From Escherichia coli (GTDB lineage: Bacteria > Pseudomonadota > Gammaproteobacteria > Enterobacterales > Enterobacteriaceae), in the NCBI RefSeq assembly GCF_017348835.2, contig NZ_CP071375.1: DNA of 64,000 nucleotides. One strand, given 5' to 3'. Made by a program: the position numbers. Positions 23,401 to 29,400 of the stretch are shown here, in pieces (position 1 is the first letter of the stretch; every line of letters starts with the position of its first letter).

Positions 23401-26400
23401 GTTTACGCGAAAGTCTGGCTCTGCGTCAACAAAATGAATCGGTGGTCAGGCTGATGCAGCAGCAATTGCAGCAGACTGTGATGACTCACGGCTGGATTTA
23501 CACCGACGCCCAGCTGTTACGCGATGATATTCAAACACTTTTCACGGCAGAACGATATTGACCAAGACGTTACTTGACGGCCCCGGTCGCGTGCTGGAGT
23601 CGGTTTATCCCCGCTTTTTAGTGGATCTGGCGCAGGGCGATGATGCCCGCCTTCCACAAGCCCATCAGCAGCAGTTTCGTGAACGACTGATGCAGGAACT
23701 TCTTGCGCGCGTGCAGCTTCAGACATGGACGAACGGCGGCATGTTAAATGCGCCGCTTAGCCTGCGTCTGACATTGGTGGAAAAACTGGCGTCGATGCTG
23801 GATCCCGGTCATCTGGCACTGACGCAGATCGCGCAGCATCTGGCGCTGCTGCAAAAAATGGATCACCGCCAGCACTCTGCTTTCCCGGAGCTCCCCCAGC
23901 AAATTGCCGCCTTGTATGAGTGGTTTTCAGCCCGTTGTCGCTGGAAGGAAAAGGCATTAACGCAACGAGGCCTACTGGTGCAGGCAGGTGAACAGAGCGA
24001 GCAAATTTTTACCCGCTGGCGTGCTGGGGCGTATAACGCCTGGTCGTTGCCTGGGCGCTGTTTTATCGTTCTCGAAGAGTTGCGTTGGGGGGCATTTGGC
24101 GATGCCTGTCGTCTGGGAAGCCCGCAAGCGGTGGCGTTGTTGCTGGGTGATTTGCGCGTGAAAGCGACACAACATCTGGCAGAGAGTATCAATGCGGCCC
24201 CGACCACGCGTCACTATTACCATCAGTGGTTTGCCTCTTCGACCGTTCCGACGGGCGGGGATCATGCTGATTTTTTAAGTTGGCTGGGAAAGTGGACCAC
24301 GGCAGATAAACAACCCGTTTGCTGGTCAGTGACCCAACGTTGGCAAACTGTCGCGCTGGGGATGCCACGACTCTGTTCAGCGCAGCGTTTGGTGGGGGCA
24401 ATGGTCGAGGAAATCTTCTCTGTAAATTTGGCGTAAATAATCAGTTACATCAATGAGTCCTAAACGAAATCCATGTGTGAAGTTGATCACAAATTTAAAC
24501 ACTGGTAGGGTAAAAAGGTCATTAACTGCCCAATTCAGGCGTCAACTGGTTTGATTGTACATTCCTTAACCGGAGGGTGTAAGCAAACCCGCTACGCTTG
24601 TTACAGAGATTGCATCCTGCAATTCCCGCTCCCCTTTTGCGGCCGTCGCGCTGATTTTTCTGGCGTTTGCGGAAATGGGCCAACTCTGCGAGGAAAGCTA
24701 TGCTGAAAAGGAAAAAAGTAAAACCGATTACCCTTCGTGATGTCACCATTATTGATGACGGTAAACTGCGTAAAGCCATTACCGCAGCATCACTGGGTAA
24801 TGCAATGGAATGGTTCGATTTTGGTGTTTATGGTTTTGTTGCTTACGCATTAGGTAAAGTTTTTTTCCCGGGGGCTGACCCCAGCGTGCAGATGGTTGCT
24901 GCACTTGCCACGTTCTCCGTTCCCTTTCTGATTCGACCGCTTGGCGGACTCTTCTTTGGTATGTTGGGCGATAAATATGGTCGCCAGAAGATCCTCGCTA
25001 TCACTATTGTGATTATGTCGATCAGTACGTTCTGTATTGGCTTAATACCATCCTACGACACGATTGGTATTTGGGCACCGATTCTGCTGTTGATCTGTAA
25101 GATGGCACAAGGTTTCTCGGTCGGCGGTGAATATACCGGGGCGTCGATATTTGTTGCGGAATACTCCCCTGACCGTAAACGTGGCTTTATGGGCAGCTGG
25201 CTGGACTTCGGTTCTATTGCCGGGTTTGTGCTGGGTGCGGGCGTGGTGGTGTTAATTTCGACCATTGTCGGCGAAGCGAACTTCCTCGACTGGGGCTGGC
25301 GTATTCCGTTCTTTATTGCTCTGCCGTTAGGGATTATCGGGCTTTACCTGCGCCATGCGCTGGAAGAAACTCCGGCGTTCCAGCAGCATGTTGATAAACT
25401 GGAACAGGGCGACCGCGAAGGTTTGCAGGATGGCCCGAAAGTCTCGTTTAAAGAGATTGCCACCAAACACTGGCGCAGCCTGTTGACATGTATTGGTCTG
25501 GTAATTGCCACCAACGTGACTTACTACATGTTGCTGACCTATATGCCGAGTTATTTGTCACATAACCTGCATTACTCCGAAGACCACGGGGTGCTGATTA
25601 TTATCGCCATTATGATCGGTATGCTGTTTGTTCAGCCGGTGATGGGCTTGCTGAGTGACCGTTTTGGCCGTCGTCCGTTTGTGCTACTTGGTAGTGTTGC
25701 CCTGTTTGTGTTGGCGATCCCGGCGTTTATTCTGATTAACAGTAACGTCATCGGTCTGATTTTTGCCGGGTTACTGATGCTGGCGGTGATCCTTAACTGC
25801 TTTACGGGCGTTATGGCTTCTACCTTGCCAGCGATGTTCCCGACGCATATCCGTTACAGCGCGCTGGCGGCGGCATTTAATATTTCGGTGCTGGTTGCCG
25901 GTCTGACGCCAACATTGGCGGCCTGGCTGGTCGAAAGCTCGCAGAATCTGATGATGCCAGCCTATTACCTGATGGTAGTGGCGGTGGTTGGTTTAATCAC
26001 CGGCGTAACCATGAAAGAGACGGCAAATCGTCCGTTGAAAGGTGCAACACCGGCGGCGTCAGATATACAGGAAGCGAAGGAAATTCTCGTCGAGCATTAC
26101 GATAATATCGAGCAGAAAATCGATGATATTGACCACGAGATTGCCGATTTGCAGGCGAAACGTACCCGCCTGGTGCAGCAACATCCGCGAATTGATGAAT
26201 AAGCTGAAACAGATGGCCTGATGTGACGCTGTCTTATCAGACCAACAATTGAACTCTTAAGGTTCACTTAATCTCTGACGCGCATACTCTCCTCCAGGTT
26301 AACGGAGGAGAGTGCAATGAAAAACCGTGTTTATGAAAGTTTAACTACCGTGTTCAGCGTGCTGGTGGTCAGCAGCTTTCTTTATATCTGGTTTGCCACG

Positions 26401-29400
26401 TACTGATCTTTCTTCAGCCGTATCCAGGCGCGCGTGCCAGAAGTCTCTTGCCGGTTTTGCAGGAAAAACTGCCCGTGATGCAACTGTGTAATGCGGCTGA
26501 CAATACTTAACCCCAGACCAATCCCGCCATAACGGCTGTCCATTCGTACAAACGCTTTACTCAACTCCCCGCATTTACTCTCATCAATACCCGGTCCTTC
26601 ATCTTCAACGGCCATGACCGCTCCGTCATCTTCTTGCAGCTTAATCATAATGTTGCTGCCTTGCGGGCTGTAACGATGGGCGTTTTCTACCAGATTTCGC
26701 AATAACATCCGCAGCAGGGTTGCATCACCCTGAACGGTGATGTCGGCGGCGCTCTCTGGCAATAGCAGGGTTTGCTGGCGCTGGTCGAGCATGGTACTGA
26801 GTTCGTCATACGAGGGGAGAATGACATCTTCCAGCAGTTTTACATGTTGATAATTACCGGAAGAAAATGACTGTCCGGCACGCGCCAGTTGCAGCAGCTG
26901 GGAGACGCTCTCCATCATCTGATCAAGCCGTGCCACTAACGGTGCTACATCAATGTGATGCGTTTTCGCCAGCAGTTCCAGATGCAAACGTACCCCCGCC
27001 AGTGGCGTTCGCAGTTCGTGCGCGACGTCAGCGGTAAATAACCTTTCGTTATCCAGCGTGCTGGTCAGGCGACTGACTAGATCGTTCAACGCCGAAACCA
27101 CCGCTTCGATTTCGAGGGTGGCGCTGTGAATGGCAATGGGCGTTAAGTTGTCGGCGGTGCGCGCTTCCAGCTCTTTTTGCAGCTCCGCCAGCGGGCGGGT
27201 GATGCGGCGTACCGCCTGATAGCAGATAAATAGCGTCAGGCTGACCATAAAGACGCCGGGGACAATCAGGCTGGCGACCGCCTCGCGGATCTCACGCATG
27301 ATGTGGCGATCGTTGTTGCGATTGTCGCGTAGCGCCTGCTCAAACAGCTGAATCTGCTCGGTACTTTCATGCCATAGCCAGAAGACGCTGATCAGCTCAA
27401 ACACCAACAAAATGGCCCCGATGGTCAATATCAGCCGTTGGCGCAGCGATATTGGTCGGCGCAGAAAACGCATCAGATTCAATTAGTTTTCCTCATTCGC
27501 GACCAGCATATAGCCAAAGCCGCGCACGGTGCGGATACGGGCTTTGCCCACTTTGTCGCGCAGATTGTGGATATGCACTTCCAGGGTGTTGGTCGAGGGT
27601 TCATTGTCCCAGTTATAGATGTCGTTGTAGAGAATTTCCCGATGTACCGGACTGCCTGCTTTGAGCATTAACCGTGACAGCAGAGCATATTCTTTGGGCG
27701 TCAGAATCAACTCTTCACCGCCCATCCATACCTGACGGCGACCCATATTCAGCGTCAGATTGCCAACAATCAGCTCACTTTCGCCCTGATTATTATGGCG
27801 TCGTAGCAGGGCGCGGATACGGGCGTGTAACTCTTCCAGCGCAAAAGGCTTCACCAGATAGTCATCGGCACCGACATCCAGCCCGGCGATTTTGTCGGTC
27901 AGCGTATCGCGAGCGGTGAGGATCAGTACCGGCAGGGTGTATTTTTTCTGCCGGATACGGGCGAGAAAATGCAGTCCATCTTCGTCGGGTAACCCTAAAT
28001 CCAGTACTACCAGGCTGTAATGACCGGCCTCAAGGCTTTGTTCCGCCATCCGCGCGGTTGTCACGCCATCGCACGCGTAGCCTTCGGTTTGCGCCGCCAG
28101 AATCAGTCCCTGCAATAACAGCGTATCGTCTTCAACAATCAGAATTTTCATTCACTCACTCTCCTGCAAGTATGCAGAATATCATCCGCAGCCTGGTAAT
28201 ACTTCGTCTCAACGCCAGTTAATCCCAATAGCGTGGAGAATAAATTGTCTTGTGAATAGTGTTGCGTTTGCGCCTGTTTTTGCAGGCAGTTCTGGTCAAC
28301 CTGATACCGTTTTTGATAATCCTCCGACAGCCACAGCAGCATCGGCACCTGTTTTTGGCTATCCGGGGCGATGGCATAAGGCAGACCGTGCAGATAGATG
28401 CCATTTTCACCTAACGATTCACCGTGGTCAGAAAGATAAACCAGGCTGGTGGTAAATTTATCCTGATGTTCTTTCAGCAGATTAATCGCTTTATCAACAA
28501 TATAGTCGACGTAAACCAGCGTGTTGTCGTAAGTGTTCACCAGTTGCTCTTTGCTACAGGTCTGGATCTCATTGGTGTCGCAGGTTGGGGTAAATTTCCT
28601 GAACTGCGGCGGATAGCGGTTGTAATAGGTCGGACCGTGGCTGCCGATGGTGTGTAAGACAATCACGCCATCACCCTGCAGGTTATTGATGTACTCTTCC
28701 AGCCCGTGGAACAGCACTTCGTCATAGCATTCGCCGTTGATGCACTGACCAGGCAGATTCAGCGCGGTGACGTTCTGGTGAGGCACGCGGTCGCAGGCAC
28801 CTTTACAGCCGCCATCGTTGTCATTCCACAGCACGTTGATGCCCGCTCGCTGAATGATATCCAGCACGCCTTCCTGGTGCTGTGCCAGCTCTTCTTTGTA
28901 GTGCTCACGCGGCATATCCGAGAACATGCACGGTACTGAAACTGCCGTTGCTGTGCCGCAAGATGCGGTATTAGGGAAATAGACCACGTTATCTTTCGCC
29001 AGCCGCGGGTTAGTTTCACGCGGGTAGCCGTTGAGGGAGAAGTTCTCCGCCCGCGAGGTTTCGCCGACAATCAGGATGGTCAAATTTTTACGTTTTTCGT
29101 TCTGCATTAACGGGTTGCGGTGCGCGTCTTCACCAATTCGCACCAGCGGCAGATTTGCCAGTCGCTGATGGGAGTACCATGACCAGCTGGCAACAATGCT
29201 GTTAGAGGGGCTTAAGGATTTCACCAGCTCTTTGTTATTGCGGAACAACGAGGCGTAGTCTTTATAAAACAGTGCGGCGACCAGCAAAATCAGCAGTACA
29301 GAAACCAGAATATTGGCTCCACGGAAAAGAACACTGCGCAGACGCGAGGTGGCAGGTTTGATTTTTATCCAGCAGGCAATCAGCGCAGCAAGCACGCCGC

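What the first reader, a model, noticed from the sequence alone, without database searches (positions are those of the whole stretch)
26287..26406. pmrR start region: Shine-Dalgarno sequence buried in a perfect 9-bp stem, and convergent 3' overlap with basS
The hairpin ctctcctcc-aggttaac-ggaggagag ends 4 nt before the pmrR ATG, and its 3' arm contains the GGAGG ribosome-binding sequence. This suggests structure-dependent translational control or a proP terminator doubling as pmrR leader. In addition the last ~25 nt of pmrR overlap the 3' end of basS on the opposite strand, giving antisense potential.
Basis: partly seen in the sequence, partly recalled or inferred. Interest (0 to 1): 0.25.

Follow-up and report, generated by a model that had tools for sequence, protein, structure and literature searches.

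The report
Conserved stem-loop over the pmrR ribosome site
A strong, evolutionarily conserved RNA hairpin covers the ribosome-binding site of the small E. coli gene pmrR; it most likely marks the end of the upstream proP message and silences pmrR on read-through RNA, while pmrR's own PmrA-driven transcript probably starts inside the hairpin and escapes it.

Summary
Window 26286-26313 is a perfect 10-bp stem with an 8-nt loop (plus one G.U pair; -19.4 kcal/mol). Its 3' arm carries GGAGG, and it ends 3-4 nt before the pmrR ATG. pmrR and basS overlap by 25 nt.

The hairpin is not chance. It sits at the same place in about 50 Enterobacteriaceae genomes with compensatory changes, and it is part of the consensus structure of Rfam RF02052 (STnc630), which is really the pmrR locus.

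Two published 3'-end maps of E. coli K-12 place a + strand RNA end at or just after the A of the ATG. A third, SEnd-seq, is cited for termination of the upstream gene inside pmrR. This supports the "proP 3' end" reading.

"Translational control of pmrR's own mRNA" is unlikely. An exact PmrA box (26256-26272) and a conserved -10-like hexamer (CATACT, 26283-26288) predict a start near 26293-26296, at the 5' arm/loop junction. The PmrA-dependent mRNA would then lack the anti-SD arm.

Best model (inferred, not shown): the hairpin is a 3'-end structure and a translational insulator against read-through, as in IS10 fold-back inhibition. No start site was available to confirm it. The find is ordinary to modestly interesting.

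The parts
24700..26202 (+). proP coding sequence, the co-directional upstream gene whose transcripts run into the hairpin
   Evidence: RefSeq annotation of the identical strain, mapped to window coordinates; ORF list
26256..26272 (+). PmrA (BasR) box CTTAAGGTTCACTTAAT, which takes the place of the -35 element of the pmrR promoter
   Evidence: One of only two exact matches to YTTAAK-N5-YTTAAK in the 64 kb; the other is the eptA promoter. Conserved downstream of basS in about 55 genomes. Its deletion abolishes PmrR function in E. coli (PMC8129183).
26283..26288 (+). -10-like hexamer CATACT (family pattern N-A-N-A-C-T), 10 nt after the box; its last three bases are also the base of the 5' arm
   Evidence: Alignment A2: T26288 is invariant, and A26284, A26286 and C26287 are at least 90% conserved. 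The partners of two of these positions (alignment columns 61 and 59) vary between T and C. Conservation is therefore sequence-specific and not due to pairing.
26293..26296 (+). Predicted PmrA-dependent transcription start (inferred, not mapped)
   Evidence: 7-8 nt after the -10 T. The pmra-box spans about -37 to -21 in pbgP (PMC10570014), which puts +1 at box end +21 to +24. In most orthologues the base 7 nt after the -10 T is an A immediately after the 5' arm.
26286..26295 (+). 5' arm of the hairpin (anti-Shine-Dalgarno, ACTCTCCTCC)
   Evidence: covariation
26296..26303 (+). Loop AGGTTAAC
   Evidence: loop sequence is free to vary among species
26304..26313 (+). 3' arm GGAGGAGAGT, holding the Shine-Dalgarno GGAGG (26304-26308)
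   Evidence: Probability that the SD is unpaired is 0.00 when the 5' arm is present.
26317..26406 (+). pmrR coding sequence (29 aa, LpxT inhibitor)
   Evidence: Annotation. The ORF is conserved at the same place in many genera. Translation start profiling and start-codon mutants are in PMC11429745.
26317..26319 (+). Published + strand RNA 3' ends, 3-6 nt after the stem
   Evidence: Term-seq 4332116 (LB OD 2.0) in PMC7815308 supp. 1. TRS peaks 4332117/4332118 in PMC10687069. Offset K-12 = window + 4305799.
26382..26406 (.). 25-nt convergent overlap of the pmrR and basS coding sequences
   Evidence: length is not conserved across genera
26382..27482 (-). basS (pmrB) coding sequence
26506..26506 (+). 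3' terminus assigned to pmrR mRNA (K-12 4332305), 100 nt past the stop codon and antisense to basS
   Evidence: PMC10687069 supplementary files 4 and 6
26669..26669 (+). Rho-dependent termination region on the + strand, antisense to basS (K-12 4332468)
   Evidence: PMC7815308 supp. 2: coverage 248 to 32 without bicyclomycin and 400 to 443 with it, score 8.6, p 2.7e-37

Best explanation
The stem-loop acts on + strand RNA that enters from upstream (proP in Escherichia, uvrB in most other genera). On such RNA it folds and does two things. First, it provides the stable 3'-end structure at which proP transcripts are found to end. This is probably by exonuclease trimming back from a downstream Rho-dependent stop, since there is no U-tract. 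Second, it buries the pmrR Shine-Dalgarno sequence, so read-through RNA does not make PmrR.

pmrR's own promoter is a PmrA-activated promoter in which the PmrA box replaces the -35 element. Its -10 element overlaps the base of the 5' arm, and its start site falls at the 5' arm/loop junction. The PmrA-initiated mRNA therefore begins about 20 nt before the ATG, lacks the anti-SD arm and is translatable. PmrR synthesis is thus tied to PmrA activation and insulated from proP or uvrB transcription.

Shown: the hairpin, its conservation and covariation, the 3' ends, the PmrA box and its requirement. Inferred: the start site, the silencing of read-through RNA, and trimming versus true termination.
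For: - **Stability.** The hairpin is stable: -19.4 kcal/mol, z -5.5.
- **Conservation and covariation.** It is conserved in register in 52 aligned sequences from Escherichia, Citrobacter, Klebsiella, Raoultella, Kluyvera, Kosakonia, Enterobacter, Phytobacter and others. 81.6% of cells are paired, against 36-49% with slid partners. 47 cells changed on both sides, against 17 +/- 3 in shuffles (0 of 500). One pair shows AU 17, CG 16, GC 6 and GU 6.
- **Strand.** In the core stem, 35 cells are G.U on the + strand RNA, against 8 that would be G.U on the - strand.
- **RNA ends.** + strand RNA ends map at 26317-26319 in two mapped data sets, and SEnd-seq is cited for upstream-gene termination inside pmrR.
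- **Read-through RNA exists.** Rho-dependent termination occurs downstream. Salmonella Hfq-bound cDNAs (STnc630) start upstream of the PmrA box.
- **Promoter geometry.** There is an exact PmrA box. A -10-like hexamer with invariant A/T positions lies at fixed spacing. The pmra-box occupies about -37 to -21 in a PmrA-RNAP structure paper. The ATG lies a constant 41-46 nt after the box in all genera, and the eptA promoter in the same window has the same spacing of 46 nt.
- **Effect of the start site.** Leaders starting at 26292 or later lose the hairpin: -5 to -6 kcal/mol against -19 to -21. SD accessibility rises from 0.00 to about 0.3. Across orthologues the medians are -20.2 with 0.00 for the full leader and -6.7 with 0.38 for the truncated one.
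- **Upstream gene.** It is co-directional in all loci where it could be identified except one. That one, Pantoea sp. A4 (L060), keeps the promoter but has no hairpin.
- **PmrA dependence.** Deleting the PmrA box abolishes PmrR function in E. coli.
Against: - No experimentally mapped pmrR start site could be obtained. Kato 2012, Thomason 2015 and Ju 2019 are not held.
- With the start as predicted, the SD is only about 30-40% unpaired in the partition function, because of weak alternative pairing.
- Many uvrB-linked genomes already have a separate terminator hairpin just upstream of the PmrA box. A second barrier is therefore not obviously needed.
- Enterobacter sp. ENT03 (L036) has a co-directional upstream gene but a degraded inner stem.
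- The strand asymmetry and covariation counts are cells, not independent events.
- The hairpin is nearly as good on the - strand: 84% against 91% of core cells paired.
- Truncating it lowered pmrB mRNA 315-fold in a plasmid system (PMC8004244).
Confidence: 0.55

Rival explanations
1. 3'-end or terminator structure for the eptA-basRS operon on the - strand. The reverse-complement hairpin lies 69-96 nt after the basS stop codon. It would stabilise or define the 3' end of pmrB mRNA.
For: - The - strand RNA folds as well as the + strand (-21.8 kcal/mol, z -3.4).
- E. coli has no canonical terminator between basS and the hairpin.
- In PMC8004244, a pmrB clone ending at C26295 (second arm missing) gave no resistance and 315-fold less pmrB mRNA than one reaching 26256. 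A clone ending at 26278 (whole hairpin) gave partial resistance.
- The hairpin is always linked to basS.
Against: - The half-lives of the two pmrB mRNAs were equal, 1.0 and 0.83 min.
- The same end points also remove the pmrR -10 element and PmrA box, so the series is confounded.
- No - strand 3' end is listed near the hairpin in the Term-seq or TRS tables, although basS is poorly expressed in those conditions.
- Core wobble pairs favour the + strand, 35 to 8.
- Genomes without pmrR have a canonical terminator after basS. Klebsiella has one just beyond the PmrA box. The hairpin therefore tracks pmrR, not basS.
- There is no U-tract on the - strand.
Confidence: 0.2
2. Translational control of pmrR's own mRNA. 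The native transcript would start upstream of 26286, and the hairpin would gate ribosome access to the SD (opened by temperature, a factor or a standby mechanism). The stem-loop in the IS200 tnpA 5' UTR works this way.
For: - The SD is fully paired whenever the 5' arm is present.
- Core wobble pairs favour the + strand.
- Both deletion and overexpression of PmrR are harmful, which suggests tight control (PMC11429745).
- The Rfam STnc630 model and the Salmonella cDNA cluster begin upstream of the hairpin.
Against: - A start at or before 26285 would put the -10 element on or directly next to the PmrA box. That is incompatible with a box that replaces the -35 element.
- There is no conserved hexamer in that position, whereas N-A-N-A-C-T at 26283-26288 is nearly invariant independently of pairing.
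- RNA that includes the PmrA box cannot come from the PmrA-dependent promoter, so it is read-through.
- A -19 kcal/mol block with no known opener sits badly with clear PmrA-dependent PmrR function.
Confidence: 0.12
3. Canonical Rho-independent terminator of proP and nothing more. SD coverage would be incidental.
For: RNA 3' ends map 3-6 nt after the stem. SEnd-seq is cited as showing upstream-gene termination inside pmrR.
Against: - The terminator scan does not call it, because there is no T-run after the stem on either strand.
- + strand RNA continues to 26506 and to a Rho-dependent site at 26669.
- The hairpin is kept in genomes where uvrB has its own terminator upstream.
- The 3' arm is always the SD and the 5' arm always abuts the -10 element, which a mere terminator would not require.
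Confidence: 0.08

Closest known systems
Rfam RF02052, 'Enterobacterial sRNA STnc630' (candidate from Salmonella Hfq co-IP; Sittka et al. 2008, PMC2515195)
   Same: Window 26248-26413 (+) matches the whole model at 181.8 bits, against a gathering score of 55. The family's consensus structure contains this very 11-bp hairpin. The flanking genes are proP and basS.
   Different: The family is typed as a non-coding sRNA. The matched stretch is in fact the PmrA box, the hairpin and the complete pmrR ORF. The original candidate rested on 27 cDNAs and was not detected on northern blots. No function of the hairpin is attached to the family.
IS10/Tn10 'fold-back inhibition': protection of transposase from activation by external promoters (Davis, Simons & Kleckner 1985, cited in PMC13181058; details from my own knowledge)
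   Same: An inverted repeat has one arm upstream of the gene's own start site and the other arm over the ribosome-binding site. Only transcripts entering from outside can fold and are translationally silent.
   Different: Here the gene is a chromosomal, activator-dependent small-protein gene and not a transposase. The 5' arm doubles as the -10/discriminator region of the promoter. The hairpin also coincides with the mapped 3' end of the upstream mRNA. Silencing has not been tested.
IS200 left end: bidirectional terminator against impinging transcription plus an SD-sequestering stem-loop in the tnpA 5' UTR (PMC4513863)
   Same: Two successive hairpins stand upstream of a small or tightly limited gene, one a terminator and one covering the SD. 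In the uvrB-linked genera the layout is terminator, then PmrA box, then SD hairpin.
   Different: In IS200 the SD stem-loop lies inside the gene's own mRNA and represses it constitutively. Here the own mRNA probably lacks the 5' arm.
Stable stem-loops that define mRNA 3' ends after Rho-dependent termination (general model of Dar & Sorek 2018, from my own knowledge; data of Adams et al. 2021, PMC7815308)
   Same: A GC-rich hairpin without a U-tract, an RNA 3' end a few nt after it, and a Rho-dependent termination region downstream.
   Different: Such structures are not normally also the ribosome-binding site and promoter of the next gene.
PmrA-activated promoters in which the pmra-box replaces the -35 element (pbgP/arnB, ugd, pmrC/eptA; PMC10570014)
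   Same: An exact YTTAAK-N5-YTTAAK box, a -10-like hexamer about 10 nt downstream and a short leader. The eptA promoter in the same window has the same box-to-ATG spacing.
   Different: Only the pmrR promoter has its -10-to-start segment complementary to the SD. No such complementarity is seen at eptA, by direct reading.

Membership tests
Rfam RF02052 STnc630 | Covariance-model score at or above the curated gathering threshold (55 bits) over the full model | tested here: met
   181.8 bits, E 2e-39, model positions 1-166 of 166, window 26248-26413 +
Rfam RF02052 STnc630 | Being a non-coding small RNA, which is the family's declared type | tested here: not met
   The match contains the annotated and conserved 29-codon pmrR ORF. 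PmrR is translated and functional (PMC11429745, PMC8129183). The original northern result was 'nd'.
Intrinsic (Rho-independent) terminator | GC-rich stem-loop | tested here: met
   10-11 bp with 6 G-C pairs, -19.4 kcal/mol
Intrinsic (Rho-independent) terminator | Run of U (at least 5 T in 8 nt) directly after the stem | tested here: not met
   TGCAATGAAAAACC follows on the + strand and TATGCGCGTCAGAG on the - strand. The scan does not call the site.
Intrinsic (Rho-independent) terminator | RNA 3' end just downstream of the stem in vivo | tested here: met
   Published maps give 4332116 (Term-seq) and 4332117/8 (TRS), equal to window 26317-26319. Whether this reflects termination or trimming is not resolved.
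Fold-back insulation against read-through (IS10 type) | Inverted repeat with one arm over the SD or start codon | tested here: met
   The 3' arm contains GGAGG. The SD is unpaired with probability 0.00 in RNAs carrying both arms.
Fold-back insulation against read-through (IS10 type) | The gene's own transcription start lies between the arms, so its mRNA lacks the 5' arm | tested here: inconclusive
   Predicted from the PmrA box, the conserved -10-like hexamer and published box geometry. No mapped 5' end was available.
Fold-back insulation against read-through (IS10 type) | Read-through transcripts carrying both arms exist | tested here: met
   An RNA ending at 26317 must start upstream. SEnd-seq attributes it to the upstream gene. 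The Salmonella STnc630 cDNA cluster starts upstream of the box.
Fold-back insulation against read-through (IS10 type) | Read-through transcripts are not translated, and disrupting the stem relieves this | not testable with these tools
   Needs reporter fusions with arm and compensatory mutations
SD-sequestering 5' UTR element of the gene's own mRNA (IS200 tnpA type, RNA thermometer type) | Both arms are transcribed from the gene's own promoter | tested here: not met
   By promoter geometry only. The 5' arm occupies the -9 to -1 region of the predicted promoter. This is an inference, not a mapped end.
PmrA/BasR-activated promoter | YTTAAK-N5-YTTAAK box in place of the -35 element, at suitable spacing from a -10 element | tested here: met
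   An exact box, one of 2 in 64 kb. The hexamer lies 10 nt downstream with conserved A-11, A-9 and T-7 equivalents. Geometry is from PMC10570014.
PmrA/BasR-activated promoter | Expression depends on PmrA and on the box | not testable with these tools
   Literature: deletion of the box abolishes PmrR function in a pmrA-constitutive E. coli strain (PMC8129183)
cis-antisense pair through convergent overlap | Overlapping transcripts on opposite strands | tested here: met
   25-nt ORF overlap. + strand RNA reaches 26506 and 26669 inside basS.
cis-antisense pair through convergent overlap | Overlap conserved, or shown to regulate one partner | tested here: not met
   ORF overlap varies from -8 to +57 nt among genera. 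No regulatory evidence was found.

The most novel reading that the evidence does not exclude
The pmrR promoter is built as a conserved translational insulator. The -10-to-start segment of a PmrA-activated promoter is itself the anti-Shine-Dalgarno strand. Only activator-initiated transcripts would then be translatable. Any RNA arriving from the osmotically or SOS-regulated upstream gene (proP or uvrB) would be folded and left untranslated. It would therefore be exposed to Rho before it can run far into antisense basS. This would be a host-gene counterpart of the IS10 fold-back trick, maintained for the whole history of pmrR in Enterobacteriaceae.
Probability: 0.45. Interest if true: 0.45.

Novelty: new member of a known kind. 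Interest (0 to 1): 0.3.

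Why it matters
PmrR tunes lipid A charge, and both its loss and its excess are harmful (PMC8129183, PMC11429745). In E. coli that balance trades polymyxin resistance against bile-salt resistance.

If the hairpin insulates pmrR from proP or uvrB transcription, it explains how a 29-codon gene can stay strictly under PmrA control. The gene is wedged between a strongly regulated transporter gene and its own sensor kinase.

The work also has three practical consequences:
- It corrects an Rfam family typed as a non-coding sRNA.
- It offers a different reading of a published "pmrB 3' UTR" deletion series, whose end points coincide with parts of the pmrR promoter.
- It shows that a 3' end classed as "internal to pmrR" is really the end of the upstream message.

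None of this overturns current understanding.

Tried and rejected
**Start-site evidence that could not be obtained**
- Kato et al. 2012 (which first identified PmrR, in Salmonella), Thomason 2015 (dRNA-seq) and Ju 2019 (SEnd-seq) are not held.
- The Cappable-seq GTF is truncated to the first part of the genome.
- Conway 2014 has no held supplements.
- Text searches for pmrR with start-site terms found nothing useful.

- The sigma-70 promoter scan finds no promoter at 25900-26700. This is expected for an activator-dependent promoter without a -35 element, so it was not taken as evidence against a promoter.
- The genome scan with BasS returned no Salmonella locus. The species in which PmrR was first studied is therefore represented only through the Rfam consensus.

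**Readings considered and rejected**
- Chance inverted repeat: rejected on shuffles and conservation.
- Protein-binding DNA palindrome: rejected because arm sequences change between genera while complementarity is kept, including through G.U pairs.
- Canonical intrinsic terminator: rejected because there is no U-tract.
- Alternative start codon: rejected because the ATG, the SD spacing and the ORF are conserved in all orthologues.
- ORF overlap as a conserved antisense device: rejected because the overlap length is not conserved.

**Correlation that stayed anecdotal**
- Hairpin presence against co-directional upstream gene gave one supporting case (L060) and one contrary case (L036).

Full report
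**What the region is**

The window is E. coli chromosome. The annotated genes here are proP (24700-26202, +), pmrR (26317-26406, +), basS/pmrB (26382-27482, -), basR and eptA.

The 301 nt around the finding are 100% identical to strain 14EC033 and about 97% identical to most E. coli. The differences lie in a REP-like hairpin just after proP. From the PmrA box through pmrR the sequence is identical to K-12 MG1655. It is at least 99% identical in 4831 of 5409 matching records, including O157:H7 and a BL21 derivative. Published K-12 and BL21 data therefore map directly, with K-12 coordinate = window + 4305799.

**Checking the observation**

The arms are 26286-26295 (ACTCTCCTCC) and 26304-26313 (GGAGGAGAGT). 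They form a perfect 10-bp stem with an 8-nt loop, and T26285/G26314 adds a G.U pair.

GGAGG occupies 26304-26308, 8 nt before the ATG. The 33-nt hairpin folds at -19.4 kcal/mol, against -6.6 +/- 2.3 for shuffles (z -5.5). The reverse complement folds equally well. Perfect 10-bp inverted repeats of this kind occur at 11 places in the window, against about 0.5 hits in shuffles. The 25-nt pmrR/basS overlap is real.

**What lies just upstream**

An exact PmrA/BasR box, CTTAAGGTTCACTTAAT, sits at 26256-26272. The only other exact match to YTTAAK-N5-YTTAAK in the 64 kb is the eptA promoter. Ten nt after the box comes CATACT (26283-26288), and its last three bases are the base of the 5' arm.

Deleting this box in a pmrA-constitutive E. 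coli strain abolishes PmrR function. Polymyxin resistance is lost, and is restored by deleting lpxT or by ectopic pmrR (PMC8129183).

A cryo-EM paper on the PmrA-RNA polymerase complex states that the pmra-box replaces the -35 element. It lies four bp downstream of the PhoB site at -41 to -25, that is at about -37 to -21 (PMC10570014). Taking the box end as -21 to -24 puts the pmrR start at 26293-26296. Counting 7-8 nt from the T of CATACT gives 26295-26296. Both estimates fall at the junction of the 5' arm and the loop. The eptA promoter in the same window has the same box-to-ATG spacing, 46 nt against 44 nt.

**Comparative evidence**

A scan of one genome per species with BasS gave 80 loci. 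In 55 of them a PmrR-like ORF lies convergent to basS. The genera include Escherichia, Citrobacter, Klebsiella, Raoultella, Kluyvera, Kosakonia, Enterobacter, Phytobacter, Pseudocitrobacter, Trabulsiella and Yokenella.

The layout is constant: PmrA box, then 10-11 nt, then N-A-N-A-C-T, then hairpin with the SD in the 3' arm, then ATG 41-46 nt after the box. Nearly every locus folds into a hairpin at that position.

In a plain MAFFT alignment of 52 sequences (A2), I counted a 13-pair structure:
- 81.6% of cells are paired, against 36-49% when partners are slid by 1-3 columns.
- 47 cells changed on both sides, against 17 +/- 3 in column shuffles (0 of 500 shuffles reach it).
- One pair shows AU 17, CG 16, GC 6 and GU 6.

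These counts are cells in related sequences, not independent events. Even so, the arms differ greatly between genera while staying complementary. Examples are ACTCTCCTCC/GGAGGAGAGT in E. coli, ACACTGTCCTC/GAGGATAGTGT in Raoultella and ACTCTCCTGA/TCAGGAGAGT in Phytobacter.

The hexamer bases behave differently. T26288 is invariant, and A26284 and A26286 are at least 90% conserved. Yet the partners of the corresponding alignment columns (61 and 59) vary between T and C. These bases are therefore conserved for their identity, as -10 positions would be, and not for pairing.

**Which strand**

In the eight core pairs, 35 cells are G.U on the + strand RNA. Only 8 cells are A.C, which would be G.U on the - strand. 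That gives 90.8% against 84.3% of core cells paired. This leans towards a + strand RNA function but is not decisive.

Genomes without pmrR (Rahnella, Rouxiella, Ewingella, Chimaeribacter) have an ordinary intrinsic terminator right after basS. Klebsiella has one just beyond the PmrA box, with its U-tract on the basS strand. The hairpin therefore tracks pmrR rather than basS.

**Which + strand RNA can contain both arms**

The upstream gene is co-directional with pmrR in every locus where it could be identified except one. It is proP in Escherichia and Citrobacter amalonaticus, and uvrB in most other genera.

Published maps support read-through RNA:
- Term-seq lists a + strand 3' end at K-12 4332116, the A of the pmrR ATG, in LB at OD 2.0 (PMC7815308).
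- An independent method lists termini peaking at 4332117/8 and at 4332305 (PMC10687069).
- The text of that second paper says SEnd-seq showed termination of the upstream gene inside pmrR.
- A Rho-dependent termination region is reported on the + strand at 4332468, inside antisense basS. Coverage falls from 248 to 32 without bicyclomycin and goes from 400 to 443 with it.

There is no T-run after the stem on either strand, and the terminator scan does not call it. The simplest reading is that upstream-initiated RNA passes the hairpin, is stopped by Rho further on, and is trimmed back to the stable stem. Weak U-independent termination at the hairpin cannot be excluded.

**A known RNA family**

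Rfam RF02052, "Enterobacterial sRNA STnc630", matches 26248-26413 (+) at 181.8 bits, and its consensus structure includes this hairpin.

The candidate came from Salmonella Hfq co-immunoprecipitation. There were 27 cDNAs against 1 in the control, the flanks were proP and basS, and the northern result was "nd" (PMC2515195).

The "sRNA" is thus the PmrA box, the hairpin and the whole pmrR ORF. Because the cluster starts upstream of the PmrA box, at least some of that RNA was read-through from proP.

**Effect of the start site on folding**

RNAs beginning at 26278-26290 keep the stem, at -21 to -10 kcal/mol with SD unpaired probability 0.00. RNAs beginning at 26292-26298 lose it, at -5 to -6 kcal/mol with SD unpaired probability 0.22-0.30.

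Across 51 orthologues, the median is -20.2 kcal/mol and 0.00 with the 5' arm. From the predicted start it is -6.7 kcal/mol and 0.38. In most non-Escherichia sequences the base 7 nt after the -10 T is an A directly after the 5' arm.

**Best explanation (confidence about 0.55)**

The hairpin works on RNA arriving from upstream. It defines the stable 3' end of the upstream message and hides the pmrR SD on read-through RNA. The PmrA-dependent promoter starts transcription inside the hairpin and so yields a translatable mRNA with a leader of about 20 nt.

This is the logic of IS10 fold-back inhibition (Davis, Simons & Kleckner 1985, cited in PMC13181058; details from my own knowledge). It also resembles the two-hairpin left end of IS200 (PMC4513863).

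What is shown:
- the structure, its conservation and its covariation;
- the mapped 3' ends;
- the PmrA box and its genetic requirement.

What is inferred:
- the start site;
- the silencing of read-through RNA;
- trimming rather than true termination.

**Rivals**

(i) *A 3'-end structure for basS mRNA on the - strand (0.2).* It is favoured by PMC8004244. From the primers, the pmrB clones end at C26295, A26278 and C26256. They gave colistin MICs of 0.5, 4 and 16 ug/mL, and pmrB mRNA differed 315-fold between the first and the last.

The mRNA half-lives were equal. The three end points also correspond to no -10 element, -10 element without box, and complete PmrA box. The series is therefore equally a pmrR promoter deletion series. 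The host kept its chromosomal pmrR, so neither reading fully explains the data.

(ii) *Control of pmrR's own mRNA (0.12).* This would need a start upstream of 26286. The box geometry and the conserved hexamer argue against that.

(iii) *A plain intrinsic terminator (0.08).* It fails on the missing U-tract and on the constant coupling of the arms to the -10 element and the SD.

These functions are not mutually exclusive.

**The antisense remark**

The ORF overlap is real, but it ranges from -8 to +57 nt across genera. + strand RNA does extend at least 100 nt, and up to about 260 nt, beyond the pmrR stop into antisense basS. Antisense potential therefore exists, but nothing I found shows that it regulates basS.

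**Novelty and score**

pmrR, its PmrA box, the overlap, the 3' end and even the hairpin (inside an Rfam model) are all in public resources. The features are known.

Three things seem not to be described in the papers I could search:
- the start-inside-the-hairpin architecture;
- its conservation with covariation across the family;
- the read-through insulation reading.

I file the element as a new member of a known kind. Interest is 0.3: neat and testable, but not surprising to a specialist.

Noticed in passing
window 29838-29870 (- strand), upstream of eptA: The eptA PmrA box (29854-29838) forms the 3' arm and tail of a 13-bp terminator-like palindrome (29841-29870). The palindrome is called on both strands and follows the 445-aa - strand ORF 29895-31232 (adiC by position). 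The upstream gene's terminator and the PmrA box therefore share bases. In other genera the uvrB terminator hairpin likewise abuts the pmrR PmrA box.
   Followed up: partly
window 26248-26413 (+): Rfam RF02052 'STnc630 sRNA' covers the PmrA box, the hairpin and the whole pmrR ORF. The family appears mis-typed as non-coding. The original Salmonella candidate had 27 Hfq co-IP cDNAs against 1 control and no northern signal.
   Followed up: yes
window 26215-26243 (+): There is a REP-like hairpin (GGCCTGATGTGACGCTGTCTTATCAGACC) directly after the proP stop codon. This is where the window differs from K-12 (two substitutions and a 3-nt indel), which explains the roughly 97% identity to most E. coli.
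   Followed up: partly
window 26360-26384 (+), inside the pmrR ORF: A terminator-like hairpin, TGCTGGTGGTCAGCA followed by GCTTTCTTTA, lies within the last third of pmrR. It is also paired in the Rfam consensus. The tables searched list no 3' end there; the pmrR 3' terminus is reported at 26506.
   Followed up: no
window 26506 and 26669 (+), antisense to basS: Published + strand 3' terminus (K-12 4332305) and Rho-dependent termination region (K-12 4332468). Together they show that pmrR-sense RNA covers 100-260 nt of the basS 3' end in antisense.
   Followed up: partly
window 26256-26295, against the constructs of PMC8004244: The '+86, +103, +126' end points of the published pmrB 3'-downstream deletion series fall at C26295, A26278 and C26256. 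These correspond to no -10 element, -10 element without PmrA box, and exactly the first base of the PmrA box. The series doubles as a pmrR promoter deletion series. The 315-fold pmrB mRNA difference with equal half-lives remains unexplained.
   Followed up: partly
loci L009-L063 (for example L024 Klebsiella pneumoniae, L011 Raoultella): Outside Escherichia and Citrobacter amalonaticus, the eptA-pmrAB-pmrR locus lies next to uvrB instead of proP. uvrB is co-directional with pmrR. Some relatives (L010, L015, L019, L034, L082) have uvrB directly convergent on basS, with neither pmrR nor the hairpin.
   Followed up: partly
L060 (Pantoea sp. A4) 3589-3654 and L036 (Enterobacter sp. ENT03) 3660-3721: L060 has a divergent upstream gene. 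It keeps the PmrA box, the -10-like GAAAAT and pmrR, but has no SD hairpin. L036 has a co-directional transporter-like upstream gene but a degraded inner stem. That is one case for and one against the link between the hairpin and read-through.
   Followed up: partly
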